DNA of 64,000 nt from an uncultured Alphaproteobacteria bacterium. Lineage in GTDB: Bacteria > Pseudomonadota > Alphaproteobacteria > Rs-D84. Position numbers: made by a program. The DNA is taken from NCBI GenBank assembly GCA_944392565.1, contig CALXWX010000003.1, positions 2,008 to 66,007 of the forward strand, read 5' to 3'. This document shows positions 45,001 through 51,000 of the stretch, in pieces (positions within the stretch are counted from its first letter, which is position 1; every line of letters starts with the position of its first letter).

Positions 45001-48000
45001 CCGTTCTGGGCGGTATGAACCAGTTCCTGTATCAAAACGGCGAAGACGGTGTGTTCTTTCGCGTATTTGGACCCGAAAAACAATTGCGGGAATTGTTAAT
45101 AAAATATCCGCGTGTTGCCCGTAATTGTGATGTAATTGATGCACCAAATGCAATCAAAGGCACGGACAAGGTTCGTGATGTTATTCGTCATGCCCAGGAT
45201 ACATCAATGTACATGGCGATTATGGATGTTCGCCAGGGTAATTCCGCCGCGGTGGTCAGTGCGGGAAATACCGGAATATTAATGTCGCTGTCGAAACTGG
45301 CACTGAAAACAATTGATGGTATTTCACGCCCGGCGATAACAACAATGTTGCCGTCTGGTGGCGGGGATTCGCGTGTTGTGGTGCTGGACCTGGGGGCAAA
45401 TGTTCATTGTGACGAAGGGGACTTGTTCGATTTTTCTATTTTGGGCAGTGTCTATGCCGAAGTTATTGGGAAAATGCCGCGTCCAAAGGTTGGTGTATTA
45501 AATATTGGTGAAGAATCGACCAAGGGGAACGAGACCCTGCAAAAATTAAATAAATTATTGACTGAACACAAAGATGAATTGCCATACGAATATATTGGAT
45601 TTGTAGAGGGCAATGACATTGGTGGCGGTAATGTCCAGGTGGTGGTGACCGATGGTTTTACCGGCAATATTGTTCTGAAAACGGTCGAAGGTACGGCAAA
45701 GTTAATCAAACGCGTATTGGTTGATAATTTGAAAAAATCAATATTGGCAATTATTGGTGCGTTTTTCTTGGTGCATGTTTTTAAACGATTAAAGAATAAA
45801 ATTGATCCGCGTTCATATGCGGGTGCGACTTTTCTGGGATTGCGTGGTTTTGCGGTCAAGACACACGGCAACAGTGATGCATTGGCATTTGCAAATTCGA
45901 TTAAATATGCGTCCGAATTGACGGGGGCGAATTTAAATGATGTGATTGCCGCACGCGCATTATCAGTTGCAAAAATTCGTGAAAAAATTGGTCAAGAATC
46001 TGAATAAAAAACACCGGCAAATGCCGGTATTTTTGTTTCATAATAAAAATTGAAATTTAATAATTTATATGCCATAATAAATGCGCATTGGATGATTACC
46101 AATGCGGGGTCTCAAAACCTCTTACTAGTACAAACTCCAACCGTGGTTGGAGGGTTGCGAATATATCGAATAAGCACACTATTGCTAGTAATAGTTTTGA
46201 GCCTCCAACCGCCCATAATCACGGCGGTGTTTTTATTAACCTAATAAAACAAGTGGAGAGAAAACATGATACTGGTCGATAATTCATACATTGGGCACAG
46301 AATAAGCAGTGCACGCAAAACCGCAAAAGTAAGACGAAACGATGCGGCAAAGATGTTACGCATAACGCCAAAGAAATTATTAAGATACGAAAGCGGCAAA
46401 GAATTAATCCCTGAATTCGTACTGGAACGATTGTTCTACAACGCATGGGCAATGATGGCAGTGCGAAACGCGCAATATCGTGAATTGCCCCGCCGTCCAC
46501 AGTGGGAAAAATAAAGCAGCACACCAAGTTCCCCTCCGTTGGCGGGGTGGTCAGAGAATACAAGAAAGTGCCACATCTTTGTCATGCGCGGCATAGCGTG
46601 GCAATCTATAATACAAATTGCCGCGAACGCGACACATTATGTACTGCACATAAAAACACCGGCAAATGCCGGTGTTTTTTTTAATCACCAAACACAGTAT
46701 TTAATTGCGTGTTAACACGATAAAATGTTGTGCATTTGCAAACATCTTTTAATCTGCGTGCGCCGATATATGTCATATATGAACGCAGACCACCCAAAAT
46801 ATCCTGGTTCATTTTATCAATTGAACCACGCAGTGGAACTTCGACAACGCGCCCTTCGCTGGCACGATATTTGGGCATACCATGATAATGTTTATTTTGT
46901 GCATATTCAGATGACATGCCATAGAATACTTTGAATTGTTTGGTTTCAATTATGCGTTCACCTGTTTGCGCATCAATCTGATTTGTTATATATTTCTTTT
47001 CGATGATGTCGCCAGCGGCTTCGGCACAGCCCGCATAAAATCCCCCCATCATTACAAAATCTGCACCGGCGCCAAATGCCTTGCATATATCGCCAATATA
47101 TACAACACCGCCATCACTGCAAATCATACCGCCAATACCATGGGCTGTATCAGCGCATTCGAATATTGTTGACAGTTGTGGACGACCAACACCTGTTATA
47201 CGACGGGTTATGCATGCACTGCCACTGCCGATGCCGCATTTTACAATGTCGGCACCTGATAAAATTAAATCTTCGACCAGTTCTGCGGTAACCGCATTAC
47301 CAACCATTAATAAAATATCAGGAAACTTTTCACGCATTTTTATCACCAGTTCTTTGACCCGTGGAATATATGCGTTTGGAACATCAATACATATATTGCG
47401 GCATTTATCTGGATATTGGGTTAATATGGTTTCGATTTTTTCATAATCTTCATCACGCAGCCCCATTGACAAGAACACATAATCGCGGCAATCATTTTCA
47501 GTTATAAATTTTATTAAATCATCCACCGGATAATGTTTGTGCAAACAGCAAAACATTTTATTTTGCATCATGTGTTTGGCAACTTCGAATGTACCGACGG
47601 TTGCCATATTTGCAGAAATTATACCAGTGCCAACGATTTTGCGTGGACACCATTTGAATTTGTATTCACGGGTAATTTCAACCTCTGACCGGGAATTTAT
47701 AAATGACCGTTTGGGTTTCACCAACACATCTTTAAAGTCCAGTTCGGTTTGTTCATAAATTTTCATATCAAAATCCTTTTTTTACCTTTTTTGCAATTCA
47801 TATTATTACTGAAATCATAAATGTGCAATAAATAAAAAAACACCGGCATTTGCCGGTATTTTTTATTGTTTTTTAGTGATGCGCGATAAAATGTAAAATT
47901 ATACTGATAATGAAAATTACTGTTATGATTGCCACTATAATTTTTTGTGTTTTATGACTGTGCGCACCATGACAATGGCCGCATTCACATTTACAATCGC

Positions 48001-51000
48001 GCAGCACTAAATACCACGACAGACATAACATCAGCCCAGAAAACACAAACAGCCACGGTTCAACCCAGTGTGGGATAAATTCTGCATGTGCGAATTCGGG
48101 TGCAAACAAACTGATTATTGACAGCACAATTGGCAACACGCAACAAAACAAGTGCGGCAAAATACTGGCAATAATTCCGATTTTAATGGCTTTATTTTTC
48201 ATTTCTAATCCTGGGTGTGGCGTCCGCCTCTCGCCGGCGGTTCGAACCTTTGCCACATGTTCGATTTCTGTTGGCGTCCCCAACAGGAATCGAACCTGTA
48301 TCAAGGGTTTAGGAAACCCCCGTTCTATCCAGTTGAACTATGGGGACAATGCACTATATTTTATTCACAGATTTTAATATTGCAAGTTGTAATCGCGACT
48401 TGTATAATACCCCAGATAAAAAATCTAAGGAAGGGACAACTTATGGGAAACAGACTGATTGGATATGGGGCTTATTTGCCAGAACGGATTGTCACGAACT
48501 TTGACCTGGAAAAGATTGTTGATACATCCGATGAATGGATTGTCCAGCGTACTGGTATGCGTGAACGGCATTTCGCACGTGATGATGAAACAGTTGTTGA
48601 TATGGCTGTTATCGCCGCCCAGCGCGCATTGGACAACGCGAAAATTACTATCAATGATATTGATTTATTAATTGTTGCGTCTGTATCGGCGGAATTGGAT
48701 TTTCCGTCTGTTGGGGTTCAGATTTTAGGACGCCTGGGGGCAACAAATAACGCGCCGGCATTTGATGTGCGCGGCGCATGTACAGGATATATATATGCAT
48801 TGCATTGCGCGCGCGCATTTTTTTCTGCGGGTATGCATAAGCGTATAATGGTTGTCGGCGCAGAAAAAATGTCGCGCTTTATTGATTGGAATGATCGCAG
48901 CACGGCGGTTTTGTTTGGCGATGGTGCGGGTGCGATGATATTTGAACATTCGTCATCCAGTTATTCTGGAATTATTGACACTGTTATAATGTCTGATGGC
49001 AAAGAAATGGGAATGTTATACGGCACGCCCGATCATCACATAATAATGAACGGACCGGAAACATATAAAAAGGCTGTTACATTAATGCCAGAGGCAGCCA
49101 GCTATATCATGGAACATGCTGGAATTACGGCGGATAATGTTGATTGGATTGTTCCGCACCAGGCAAATCTGCGCATAATTCAAAGTGGCGCCCAGCGCTT
49201 GGGTTTCCCATTGGACAAAATTTTAGTTACAGTGGACAAACATGCAAATACCAGTGGCGCATCAGGCGTTTTGGCAATGGCATATGCATTTGATAATAAT
49301 ATAATTAAACGCGGACAACTGGTCTTGTATCCTGCATTTGGCAGTGGTCTGACATGGGGTGCCGCATTAATCAGGGTGTAATAAATGGCAACAATAACCA
49401 GAAGTGATTTTGCAAATCGTTTGCGTGAACGTTTCGGTCTGACTACGGCTGATGCGCTGAAATTGGTTGATATCGTATTTGATGAAATTCGTGAATCATT
49501 AATTCATGGGGAAGAAGTTAAATTCGCCGGATTTGGCAGTTTTAAAATCTTGACCAAGCCACAGCGAATGGGGCGCAATCCAAAAACCGGGGAATCTGCG
49601 GTTATATCTGCGCGGCGGGTTGCGTCATTCCGACCCAGTAATGAATTCAGAAAACGGGTTGCAAAAAAATAAAAAAATACCGGCAAATGCCGGTATTTTT
49701 ATACAAATTTTTCTGGGACCAGATTTGTAATTATTTTTAACGCCCGCCGGAATATTGATGTATCCGGACTGTGGTGATATACGCGCGGTTCTGTGTCCCC
49801 GGGTCTGCTGCCGGTCCAAACGGGTTCGCCGTCATCATCCAGTGTAACGCGCCACGATGTTTTTGTATCGCGTATAATCATTTCACGCAGTTTATCTGCG
49901 AATTCGCGACTTTCAAATATTGCAACATTTTCAGTGTTGTAATACGCACTGCGCGGGTCCAGATTAAAACTGCCAATCCAAGAAATGTCATCATCAAATA
50001 CGATTGTTTTGCTGTGCAGAACAGAAAAACTGGATTGCTTGCGTTCACGGTCGTGTTCTTTGCCGCGCAGATTTTCTGCGGACAACATAAATTCATACAC
50101 ATCTGCCCCGGATTCAATTAATTGCTTTCTGTATTTTTCCCATTTTGCATAAACGGTTGGTGCATTTGTCGATGCCAGTGAATTTGTAACAATTGTCATA
50201 TGCACGCCGGAATTTTCTTCGCGCAACATGTGTTCCAATCCGCCTTGACCCGGGACAAAGTATGCCGCCGACATATACACTGAATCCGTTGTTTCGCCCC
50301 ACAGGCGTTGCAGTGCCTGGATAATATCGCCGCGATATTGTTCTTTTTCATCCATTGACATTTCAACCTTGGACGGTGGGTCTGCCAAGAATTTGCCATG
50401 CCCCCAACTGAAATCAAATTGTTTGTTTTTAAATTCGCGTTGCGCGCGCAAAATGATTTTATTGTATTCTTTAATTGCGTCCGAACTTTTTTGTTCAATA
50501 TCTGCGAACTTTTTTTCCAGTTTGCGCATCGCGCGTTCAGACTTTGCCTTTGGAAATACTGCGGCTGGGATTGCCAGATGATAATTCCAATATTCATCGA
50601 AACTGGCGGTGGCATATTTTGTCATATCGCCAATAAACAAAACATCAGTATCTGAAAAGTTCGATGCAGTTTCCGGATAGAAATAATTACTGCCAACATT
50701 ACGCCCACCTGTAATGTATGCAATATTATCAACAATAAATAATTTATTATGCATTCTGGAATTCAGTCTGTTGAAATCCAGCAAGAATTGCGGATAATAT
50801 AACAGTCTGGAACGATTTGCAACCGGGTTAAATACCTTTACTTCGATGTTTGGATGTTGGTTTAACAGCATTACATCCGCAATGTCGGATTTTGTTCCAT
50901 AATCGTCCAACAATATACGAACCTTGACCCCGCGATCTGCGGCGCGTTTTAATTCGCCAATCAGCACCTTGGACGAAAAATCATTACTGTAAATATATGT

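What the first reader, a model, noticed from the sequence alone, without database searches (positions are those of the whole stretch)
46008..48442. 2.4-kb block (palindromic element, XRE regulator, guaC, MerT-like membrane protein, tRNA-Arg-CCU) splitting the normally contiguous plsX-fabH
rpmF-plsX-fabH(-ihfA) is a widely conserved arrangement with plsX and fabH adjacent. Here plsX ends at 46007 with its own terminator and fabH starts at 48443. Between them lie an RPE/MITE-like palindrome, a copy of a dispersed repeat, an XRE HTH gene, and on the opposite strand guaC, a MerT-topology membrane protein and tRNA-Arg(CCU). tRNA-Arg(CCU) has a degenerate duplicate of its 3' end 54 bp away. tRNA-Arg(CCU) (rare-codon AGG) and the direct repeat of its 3' end are typical landmarks of acquired DNA. 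fabH would need its own promoter (48350-48440 is AT-rich).
Basis: partly seen in the sequence, partly recalled or inferred. Interest (0 to 1): 0.55.

Follow-up and report, generated by a model that had tools for sequence, protein, structure and literature searches.

The report
Native genes plus small mobile RNA-regulator cassette
The 2.4 kb between plsX and fabH is not one piece of imported DNA: it is the organism's own genes sitting in a stretch of chromosome that has been reshuffled in nearly every related species, plus one small insert (a folded RNA and a tiny regulator gene) that is present in some strains and absent in others.

Summary
The window is from Candidatus Enterousia, a gut alphaproteobacterium with a genome of about 1 Mb. 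The "acquired block at tRNA-Arg" reading holds for only a quarter of it.

- **Native genes.** guaC, the MerT-like gene and tRNA-Arg(CCU) have backbone-like composition and are conserved across the genus. MerT-like–tRNA-Arg–fabH–ihfA is a genus-wide unit with its own conserved divergent promoters.
- **An old split.** plsX is never next to fabH in any of 80 related species. rpoBC–rpmF–plsX is collinear in all 80. The roughly 12 kb downstream is permuted or inverted as four to six self-contained units in almost every species.
- **tRNA scar.** The tRNA 3'-end duplicate is real. It is a decayed scar (19-nt repeats around about 100 nt in sister strains) and lies inside the conserved unit. It does not bound the block.
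- **The variable piece.** Only 46038–46651 varies between strains. It holds a promoter, a structured RNA with covariation support that resembles sRNA-Xcc1 but scores below threshold, an 82-aa XRE gene, and GC-rich repeats. It is flanked by two copies of the plsX/guaC terminator hairpin and is missing from strains 97–98% identical. The same kind of cassette sits at three other chromosomal sites elsewhere in the genus.

Recombination at the shared palindromic terminators is inferred, not shown.

The parts
44934..46007 (+). plsX, the last gene of the invariant rpoB-rpoC-rpmF-plsX block (unit A)
   Evidence: PF02504 at 312 bits. Collinear with w~36900-45990 in all 80 related species.
46007..46037 (.). 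T1: palindromic terminator hairpin, the left copy flanking the cassette
   Evidence: Strains with the empty site have a single copy between plsX and guaC.
46050..46078 (+). Promoter of the cassette RNA (TTGAAA, 17 nt, TG-n-CATAAT)
   Evidence: 10 of 12 matches, with an extended -10. A promoter-like sequence sits immediately upstream of the element in most other copies inspected.
46085..46238 (+). It consists of a 5' hairpin, a three-way core GGTTGGAGG...GAATATATYGAATAA...CCTCCAACC, and its own terminator hairpin with a T-run.
   Evidence: The fold scores z = -6.1. On 10 diverse copies, 12 of 23 pairs show compensatory changes and 95% of cells are paired, with 0 of 500 shuffles reaching the observed values for four of the five measures and 1 of 500 for the fifth. 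The covariance model R1 scores 102.6 bits at 46134-46236. The Rfam sRNA-Xcc1 match is 35.9 bits, below the gathering score of 53.
46266..46514 (+). 82-aa XRE-type HTH gene of the cassette
   Evidence: PF13560 at 27.8 bits against a cut-off of 27. The family has only 20 clusters, all from gut metagenomes. The copy in L085 gives an identical protein although the DNA has diverged, which indicates purifying selection.
46515..46651 (.). GC-rich dispersed palindromic repeat units forming the cassette's right part. Their number varies between strains.
   Evidence: The region is expanded by about 320-400 nt in L097 and L103.
46652..46682 (.). T2: the right copy of the terminator hairpin. It is a bidirectional terminator for XRE and guaC.
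46681..47766 (-). guaC (GMP reductase). A native gene that forms a movable unit (C).
   Evidence: NF003470 at 461 bits. GC 0.398 and codon-usage distance 0.81, both within the backbone range. It is 88-95% identical in 8 relatives, where it lies at other positions or in other orientations.
47836..47866 (.). T3: the same hairpin with its loop inverted. It terminates the MerT-like gene and lies at the junction between units C and D.
47873..48202 (-). 109-aa MerT-like membrane protein. A native gene belonging to unit D.
   Evidence: Weak matches to MerC and MerTP. It is 63-90% identical in 17 relatives. It lies next to tRNA-Arg(CCU) in at least 10 of the 12 relatives where that tRNA is in view.
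48217..48271 (.). Decayed scar of an old insertion at the tRNA 3' end. An 8-nt remnant, TGGCGTCC, survives from a 19-nt direct repeat, together with an inverted T-arm-like copy.
   Evidence: The intact form, TGGCGTCCCCAACAGGAAT around about 100 nt, is present in strains L082 and L086 and in species L026. It is absent from L003, L016 and L020. No other copy exists in the window.
48272..48347 (-). tRNA-Arg(CCU)
   Evidence: ARAGORN and Rfam at 65.9 bits. It sits next to fabH or ihfA in all 12 relatives where it is found. AGG accounts for 11 of 926 Arg codons, and these occur in core genes.
48358..48408 (.). Back-to-back promoters sharing one palindromic -35 TTGCAA (48380-48385). On the plus strand TATAAT 48403-48408 serves fabH-ihfA. 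On the minus strand TAAAAT 48363-48358 serves the tRNA.
   Evidence: The TTGCAA and TATAAT hexamers are conserved in 12 of 13 aligned sequences.
48443..49672 (+). fabH-ihfA, a relic of the rpmF-plsX-fabH-ihfA cluster and part of unit D
   Evidence: The pair is adjacent in relatives, although six species have ihfA directly after the promoter with no fabH.
49673..49700 (.). T4: the same hairpin again. It is a bidirectional terminator between ihfA and the PLD-family gene, at the junction between units D and E.

Best explanation
The interval has three layers.

**1. An ancestral unit.** In the ancestor of Ca. Enterousia the usual rpmF-plsX-fabH-ihfA cluster was already broken after plsX. Since then fabH-ihfA has travelled with tRNA-Arg(CCU) and a MerT-like gene as one unit. 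That unit is driven by back-to-back promoters that share a single palindromic -35 hexamer.

**2. A reshuffled stretch.** The roughly 12 kb after plsX is built of self-contained transcription units, each ending in a hairpin terminator:
- guaC;
- MerT-like-tRNA-fabH-ihfA;
- PLD-ORF791;
- mraZ-ORF111;
- an autotransporter.

These units have been inverted and transposed relative to one another in nearly every species. The window's order is that of its own species.

**3. A strain-variable cassette.** A cassette of about 0.62 kb lies in the terminator shared by the convergent plsX and guaC genes, with that 28-31-nt hairpin present on both sides. It comprises a promoter, a structured RNA with its own terminator, an 82-aa XRE gene and GC-rich repeats. 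It is gained or lost among strains, and relatives of it sit at other intergenic sites.

**Inferred mechanism.** Short palindromic terminators read the same in both orientations, so they can serve as both direct and inverted repeats. Recombination between them would give inversions, excisions and re-insertions of whole units, and precise loss of the cassette. It would also homogenise the hairpins that flank a unit. The XRE gene can only be expressed by read-through of the RNA's terminator, so the RNA probably acts as a cis leader or attenuator.

**Shown:** the anatomy, the conservation, the strain polymorphism and the RNA covariation. **Inferred:** the recombination mechanism and the role of the RNA.
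For: **Synteny**
- 80 species loci were fetched by plsX. Unit A is collinear in all of them. Downstream order and orientation give 68 distinct strings among the 80.
- plsX is never followed directly by fabH. Each plsX has its own terminator.
- The closest species, L001 (93% nt identity), joins plsX directly to mraZ. L002 joins it directly to the PLD-family gene.

**Native status**
- Composition and codon usage are backbone-like, and identities track the backbone.
- tRNA-Arg(CCU) is next to fabH or ihfA in all 12 relatives where it is found, with the MerT-like gene alongside in at least 10 of them. The promoters are conserved.

**Same-species stability**
- At least 20 independent metagenome contigs at 94-100% identity keep the window's gene order.

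**Cassette**
- The empty site, with a single hairpin, occurs in L095, L098, L100 and L101. Three of these are contigs of 72-154 kb that are 97-98% identical to the window.
- The empty-site strains are scattered among strains that carry the cassette.
- The RNA plus an XRE homologue sits at pnp|rpsO, next to dnaE, and at M48-peptidase|ackA in other genomes.
- A related cassette between ihfA and the PLD-family gene in L016 is again flanked by two hairpin copies.

**Hairpins**
- There are four near-identical copies, found only at unit junctions.
- Unit D is flanked by matching hairpins of three different sequence types in different lineages: the window and L016; L048 and L056; L071.

**RNA**
- Covariation supports the fold.
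- The 17 model hits in the first set are low-copy, and 7 more come from loci fetched by XRE homologues. In the copies inspected the element is followed by a terminator-like hairpin and, in nearly all of them, an ORF.
Against: - Recombination at the hairpins is not demonstrated. Breakpoints must fall in the short intergenic spacers of a compact genome, and those spacers are mostly terminators. Coincidence of breakpoints with hairpins is therefore partly forced.
- The within- versus between-genome hairpin comparison is noisy. Only about half of the genomes have matching hairpins at both ends of unit D.
- Hairpin duplication flanks the cassette in the window and in L016, but not at the pnp|rpsO, dnaE or ackA sites. 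There the cassette seems to carry its own terminator of a different type.
- The direction of the polymorphism is unresolved: insertion, or precise deletion.
- No inversion heterogeneity was seen within the species.
- All relatives are metagenome assemblies.
Confidence: 0.75

Rival explanations
1. The whole 2.4 kb is a genomic island that an integrase inserted at the 3' end of tRNA-Arg(CCU), splitting plsX from fabH.
For: - A true duplicate of the tRNA 3' end exists. It is 19 nt long in sister strains.
- AGG is a rare codon.
- The XRE gene and the palindrome are strain-variable.
Against: - The repeat pair encloses only about 50-100 nt and lies between the tRNA and the MerT-like gene. No distal copy exists.
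- No integrase is present.
- guaC and the MerT-like gene have native composition.
- The tRNA-fabH/ihfA link, mostly with the MerT-like gene, is conserved across the genus.
- plsX and fabH are apart in all 80 species.
Confidence: 0.04
2. The hairpins are sites for a dedicated site-specific recombinase, in the manner of integron attC sites or Xer/pdif modules. The units would then be true cassettes that are excised and re-integrated enzymatically.
For: - Identical palindromes of about 28 nt sit at every unit junction, readable as 11-6-11.
- Whole units, each with its own promoter and terminator, move and invert.
- The cassette is flanked by duplicated hairpins at two independent sites.
- The hairpin loop flips orientation between strains.
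- sRNA-Xcc1 relatives occur in integron cassettes (bioRxiv 10.1101/2025.06.18.660453).
Against: - No integrase or recombinase is present in the 64 kb.
- No dif-like site was found. By inspection the hairpin has no attC-type R boxes.
- The hairpin sequence differs between lineages (CCGGCA, TCCCC and CGCCC types). A fixed recognition site would not be expected to vary like this.
- Each hairpin is a canonical intrinsic terminator in the correct place.
- The gene order is stable within the species.
Confidence: 0.1
3. The scrambling reflects the region's position or content rather than the hairpins. Either it lies at the replication terminus, or it is a zone of surface-protein genes (autotransporter, ORF791, PLD) that is repeatedly replaced by DNA from other Enterousia through transformation. 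Housekeeping units would then simply be carried along.
For: - Cumulative GC skew rises up to 46 kb and then flattens.
- comEC, recR and rmuC are present.
- Divergence is mosaic. L021 and L022 are 93% identical in the flanks but 84% in the PLD-family gene and 72% in ORF791. The plsX end of L095 is 93% identical where the rest is 99%.
Against: - The skew follows gene orientation and shows no clear switch.
- No dif-like site was found.
- Replacement by transformation explains mosaic divergence. It does not by itself explain the inversions of guaC or of the fabH unit.
Confidence: 0.1

Closest known systems
rpmF-plsX-fabH(-ihfA) conserved cluster of Proteobacteria (own knowledge; the E. coli cluster is discussed in PMC3896788, which one search listed but I did not read)
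   Same: rpmF-plsX and fabH-ihfA both survive as adjacent pairs.
   Different: The link between plsX and fabH is broken in all 80 Enterousia species examined. fabH-ihfA has its own promoter, which it shares back-to-back with tRNA-Arg(CCU). Six species lack fabH at that promoter.
tRNA-integrated genomic islands or prophages (attL/attR made from the tRNA 3' end)
   Same: A 19-nt direct repeat of the tRNA-Arg 3' end flanks inserted DNA in sister strains. A similar scar lies at tRNA-Gln, 4766-4957.
   Different: Only about 100 nt remains between the repeats (about 50 nt in the window). There is no integrase. The scar lies inside a conserved unit and does not delimit the 2.4 kb.
sRNA-Xcc1 (Rfam RF02221), found upstream of symE in Xanthomonas integron cassettes and upstream of a small ORF in APSE phages
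   Same: Both have an outer stem enclosing two hairpins, an AAUAUA-type loop and a UUUGAGCC bridge. Both lie directly upstream of a small gene inside a mobile or variable cassette.
   Different: The score is 35.9 bits against a gathering score of 53. Other Enterousia copies were not detected by Rfam. This element carries extra 5' hairpins and its own terminator. The downstream genes here are XRE-type HTH proteins, secreted proteins, a probable methyltransferase and a glycosyltransferase (the last two judged by eye from the translations), not symE.
REP/BIME- or Correia-type intergenic palindromes that mediate rearrangements (own knowledge)
   Same: Short palindromic intergenic repeats lie at rearrangement junctions, and a family of GC-rich dispersed repeats accompanies them.
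   Different: The junction hairpins here are ordinary intrinsic terminators. There are only four or five copies in 64 kb, all clustered in one 3.7-10 kb stretch. Their sequence is lineage-specific.

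Membership tests
tRNA-targeted genomic island | A direct repeat of the tRNA 3' end at the far end of the island | tested here: not met
   The only repeat lies 47-55 nt from the tRNA (about 100 nt in L082, L086 and L026). There is no other copy with up to 3 mismatches in the 64 kb.
tRNA-targeted genomic island | An integrase or recombinase gene next to the tRNA | tested here: not met
   Pfam and NCBIfam scans of all ORFs in the block, and of every ORF of 150 aa or more in the window, found none.
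tRNA-targeted genomic island | Atypical composition, and absence from relatives at the same tRNA | tested here: not met
   GC, GC3 and codon usage of guaC and the MerT-like gene lie within the backbone range. In the 12 relatives where tRNA-Arg(CCU) is in view it lies next to fabH or ihfA, with the MerT-like gene alongside in at least 10.
Rfam RF02221 sRNA-Xcc1 | A score at or above the family's gathering threshold (53 bits) | tested here: not met
   The score is 35.9 bits, with E = 5.5e-5 in a 241-nt search. Five other loci that carry copies gave no hit at E up to 0.05.
Rfam RF02221 sRNA-Xcc1 | An outer stem enclosing two hairpins, supported by covariation | tested here: met
   RNAalifold on 10 copies gives the same three-way architecture. 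12 of 23 pairs show compensatory changes, and controls with slid partners collapse.
MITE / Rickettsia palindromic element | High copy number, terminal inverted repeats with a target-site duplication, and no transcription signals of its own | tested here: not met
   There is one copy in the 64 kb. The model gave 17 hits in 1.26 Mb of related loci, including 3 same-species contigs. The copies inspected have promoter-like sequence upstream, a terminator-like hairpin and, in nearly all, a downstream ORF.
XRE-family HTH (Pfam HTH_31, PF13560) | A score at or above the Pfam gathering cut-off | tested here: met
   27.8 bits against 27.0, so only just. The MqsA-type match is far below its cut-off, 22 against 62 bits.
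GMP reductase GuaC (NCBIfam NF003470) | A score at or above the curated cut-off over the full length | tested here: met
   461 bits against 397, covering residues 1-360 of 361.
MerT/MerC mercury transporters | A family model score at or above the cut-off | tested here: not met
   MerC scores 21 bits against 27.6. MerTP scores 22 bits against 180. The three-TM topology, the CC pair in TM1 and the Cys-rich loop between TM2 and TM3 were seen by inspection only.
Integron cassette array | intI integrase, attI, and attC sites with R''/R' boxes | tested here: not met
   No integrase is present in the window. The hairpins are A-run/stem/T-run terminators and their sequence varies between lineages.

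The most novel reading that the evidence does not exclude
In these reduced genomes, palindromic intrinsic terminators may double as cassette boundaries. Whole transcription units, including essential ones such as fabH-ihfA-tRNA-Arg and guaC, would be excised, inverted and re-inserted at other copies of the same hairpin. A previously undescribed RNA-plus-HTH cassette, a distant sRNA-Xcc1 relative, would enter terminators in the same way and duplicate them. This would amount to an integron-like shuffling system without a recognisable integrase.
Probability: 0.15. Interest if true: 0.65.

Novelty: new variant of a known kind. Interest (0 to 1): 0.4.

Why it matters
- **It corrects an attractive misreading.** A rare-codon tRNA with a duplicated 3' end, sitting next to a broken conserved cluster, looks like an island. 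Here it is native DNA, and the scar is unrelated to the block.
- **It documents local plasticity in a reduced genome.** In an uncultured gut symbiont of about 1 Mb, a short stretch just after an invariant rpoBC-rpmF-plsX block is exceptionally plastic. This is useful for studying how reduced genomes rearrange, and as a warning for synteny-based annotation and MAG scaffolding.
- **It defines a new small cassette.** The cassette pairs a covariation-supported RNA motif with a lineage-restricted 82-aa HTH protein, and relatives of it sit at four or more chromosomal sites. It is a tractable candidate for a new RNA family and for explaining what sRNA-Xcc1-type RNAs do upstream of small genes.

Tried and rejected
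- **Replication terminus.** GC skew follows gene orientation and shows no clear switch. A dif search with E. coli- and Caulobacter-type consensus sequences and a degenerate pattern found nothing credible.
- **Local recombinase.** Pfam and NCBIfam scans of all ORFs of 150 aa or more found no recombinase, integrase or transposase.
- **Rfam on other copies.** A search of five loci carrying the RNA gave no sRNA-Xcc1 hit, so membership of that family is left open.
- **Outgroup synteny.** The fabH homologue search listed only proteins from the genus, at 79% identity or more. The age of the plsX|fabH split beyond the genus therefore could not be dated.
- **Hairpin statistics.** Comparing hairpin similarity within and between genomes was confounded by shared flanking gene ends. 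It is used only qualitatively.
- **Chimeric assembly.** L095 was suspected of being a chimera, because its plsX end is 93% identical and the rest 99%. The empty site was then confirmed on three long contigs.
- **Uptake-sequence or high-copy repeat.** This idea for the hairpin was rejected: there are only 4-5 copies in 64 kb, all local.
- **One script** timed out and was rerun with BLAST.

Full report
**Source organism and anatomy.** A plsX query against one genome per species returned 80 loci. Nearly all are titled as uncultured Alphaproteobacteria, Rickettsiales or Candidatus Enterousia MAGs, at 79-97% amino-acid identity. The literature describes Enterousia as gut bacteria of the uncultured order Rs-D84 with genomes under about 1 Mb (PMC12306168).

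| Feature | Coordinates | Strand |
|---|---|---|
| rpmF | 44717-44866 | + |
| plsX | 44934-46007 | + |
| hairpin-rich element | about 46085-46238 | + |
| XRE-type ORF | 46266-46514 | + |
| guaC | 46681-47766 | − |
| 109-aa three-TM Cys-rich protein | 47873-48202 | − |
| tRNA-Arg(CCU) | 48272-48347 | − |
| fabH | 48443-49381 | + |
| ihfA | 49385-49672 | + |

guaC passes the curated GMP-reductase cut-off. The MerT/MerC resemblance is below threshold.

**A repeated terminator.** One palindromic terminator, AAAAACACCGGCA(AA/TT)TGCCGGTGTTTTT, occurs four times in the 64 kb and only at 46013, 46658, 47842 and 49679. None is expected by chance. A looser variant lies at 55906. These positions are exactly the borders between plsX, the XRE piece, guaC, the MerT-like-tRNA-fabH-ihfA group and the PLD-family gene.

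**Synteny.**
- BLAST of the window against the 80 loci shows rpoB-rpoC-rpmF-plsX collinear in all of them. What follows plsX differs almost everywhere, giving 68 distinct order/orientation strings among the 80.
- The same pieces recur as intact units in either orientation and in different orders:
  - guaC (w46681-47840);
  - MerT-like-tRNA-fabH-ihfA (w47868-49700);
  - PLD-ORF791 (w49696-53720);
  - mraZ-ORF111 (w54666-55936);
  - the autotransporter.
- The next block, from w58704, is internally collinear wherever it is seen.
- The closest species, L001 (93% nt identity), joins plsX directly to mraZ. L002 joins it to the PLD-family gene. Three species join plsX to DNA that lies 35 kb away in the window.
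- In none of the 80 is fabH adjacent to plsX, and every plsX has its own terminator.
- The split is therefore old and genus-wide. What is peculiar to the window is only which units come next.

**Native or foreign?**
- guaC and the MerT-like gene fall inside the backbone range for GC, GC3 and codon usage. Only the short XRE ORF deviates.
- guaC is 88-95% identical in eight relatives where plsX is 82-92%.
- tRNA-Arg(CCU) was found in 12 relatives, always next to fabH or ihfA. The MerT-like gene is alongside in at least 10 of them.
- The spacer alignment shows a promoter, TTGCAA-17-TATAAT (48380-48408), for fabH that is conserved in 12 of 13 sequences. On the other strand the same palindromic TTGCAA serves as the -35 of a tRNA promoter.
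- Six species have ihfA directly behind this promoter, with no fabH.
- No integrase or transposase is present among the window's larger ORFs.

**The tRNA duplicate.** In strains L082 and L086 and in species L026, a 19-nt direct repeat of the tRNA 3' end flanks an insert of about 100 nt: TGGCGTCCCCAACAGGAAT in the two strains and TGGTATCCCCAACAGGAAT in L026. L003, L016 and L020 lack it. The window's version has lost 61 nt between two TGGCGTCC octamers. It is a genuine old insertion scar, but it lies between the tRNA and the MerT-like gene. No further copy exists in the window, so it cannot delimit the 2.4 kb.

**The variable piece.**
- Exact-protein look-ups found at least 20 independent metagenome contigs of the same species (94-100% nt identity) with the window's gene order.
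- Four contigs, three of them 72-154 kb long, instead have plsX, one hairpin and then guaC. The 617 nt at 46035-46651, plus one hairpin copy, are absent.
- These empty-site strains are scattered among strains that carry the cassette. Other strains carry 320-400 nt more of the GC-rich repeats.
- An identical XRE protein, with the upstream element at 89% nt identity, lies between pnp and rpsO in another genome. XRE homologues with the same upstream element lie at pnp|rpsO in many contigs, next to dnaE, and between an M48 peptidase gene and ackA.
- The XRE family has only 20 clusters in 5.8 billion proteins.

**The 'palindrome' is a structured RNA.**
- Ten diverse copies share a common layout: promoter-like sequence just upstream, a conserved core, a terminator hairpin with a T-run, and then an RBS and an ORF.
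- RNAalifold gives an outer stem, GGUUGGAGG/CCUCCAACC, enclosing two hairpins. 12 of 23 pairs show compensatory changes and 95% of cells are paired. Four of the five measures are reached by 0 of 500 shuffles and the fifth by 1 of 500. Controls with slid partners collapse. The structure was predicted on the same alignment, which is a caveat.
- A covariance model found 17 copies in 1.26 Mb of related loci (3 of them same-species contigs) and one in the window. All seven further XRE loci also carry it.
- Downstream genes are mostly small HTH-like proteins. They also include secreted proteins and, judged by eye from the translations, a probable methyltransferase and a glycosyltransferase.
- Rfam's only match is sRNA-Xcc1 at 35.9 bits, against a gathering score of 53, with the same architecture. 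Other copies were not detected.
- Published work places sRNA-Xcc1 upstream of symE in a widespread Xanthomonas integron cassette, and upstream of a small ORF in APSE phages.
- I therefore treat the element as resembling sRNA-Xcc1, not as a member of that family.

**Mechanism (inferred).**
- The hairpins read the same on both strands, so any two copies are at once direct and inverted repeats.
- Unit D is flanked by matching hairpins in the window and L016 (CCGGCA type), in L048 and L056 (TCCCC type) and in L071 (CGCCC type). This points to concerted evolution of the two ends.
- A related cassette between ihfA and the PLD-family gene in L016 is again flanked by two hairpin copies.
- The left breakpoint of the PLD inversion between L021 and L022 falls at such a hairpin.
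- These observations fit recombination at the terminators, which would produce inversion, excision and re-insertion, and precise cassette loss.
- The case is not closed. Breakpoints in a compact genome have few places to fall other than terminators. Half of the genomes lack matching hairpins at both ends. The cassette at other sites carries a different terminator and shows no duplication. The score comparison was noisy.
- A terminus location and a local recombinase found no support.
- Mosaic divergence and the presence of comEC suggest that exchange between lineages also contributes.

**Verdict.** The block is a composite of native units in a genus-wide rearrangement zone, plus one small strain-variable RNA-regulator cassette. 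This is a moderately interesting result. It is ordinary as an 'island'. It is worth a note for the cassette and its RNA, and for the local plasticity of a reduced genome.

Noticed in passing
window 4732-5199: tRNA-Gln (5126-5199, minus strand) is followed by two extra 14-nt copies of its 3' end, TGGTTGGGGCGCAC, at 4766-4779 and 4944-4957. Each is preceded by a terminator hairpin. By eye, a small HTH-like ORF appears to lie at about 4382-4612 on the minus strand. This looks like the same kind of integration scar as at tRNA-Arg.
   Followed up: partly
window 53743-54667 (also 26590-27090 and 46515-46606): This is a family of GC-rich palindromic dispersed repeats, including a 75-bp unit repeated three times in tandem at 54270-54494. 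The whole 0.9-kb tract is absent from same-species contigs L091 and L093. The same repeats expand next to the XRE gene in L097 and L103.
   Followed up: partly
L041, L049, L071, L078, L048, L056 (for example L078:14839-15637): In six species the conserved tRNA-Arg/fabH divergent promoter is followed directly by ihfA, so fabH is missing from the unit. Whether fabH lies elsewhere or has been lost is unknown.
   Followed up: no
L098, L100 and L101 around 5087-5114 (empty site): The single plsX/guaC hairpin has loop AA in L101 and loop TT in L098 and L100. The loop is therefore inverted between strains 97-98% identical to the window.
   Followed up: no
L105:3540-3575, L110:3545-3580, L111:3600-3640: XRE cassettes at three unrelated chromosomal sites end with the same sequence...TTTGCACTYTGAACTYTG...AAAAAACGGGGCnnATGCCCCG. 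The cassette therefore seems to carry its own terminator, of a type different from the window's hairpin.
   Followed up: partly
window 15273-17213, 27765-32535 and 55934-58639: comEC is at 15273-17213. A virB8/9/10-like type IV secretion gene set at 27765-32535 abuts tRNA-Trp and nusG. A 901-aa protein with Pmp repeats, probably an autotransporter, is at 55934-58639 and is among the most variable units between species.
   Followed up: no
window 46085-46160: Upstream CTCCAACC can pair with GGTTGGAG as a small hairpin. This competes with the conserved outer stem GGTTGGAGG/CCTCCAACC. The two folds are mutually exclusive, as in a switch or attenuator.
   Followed up: no
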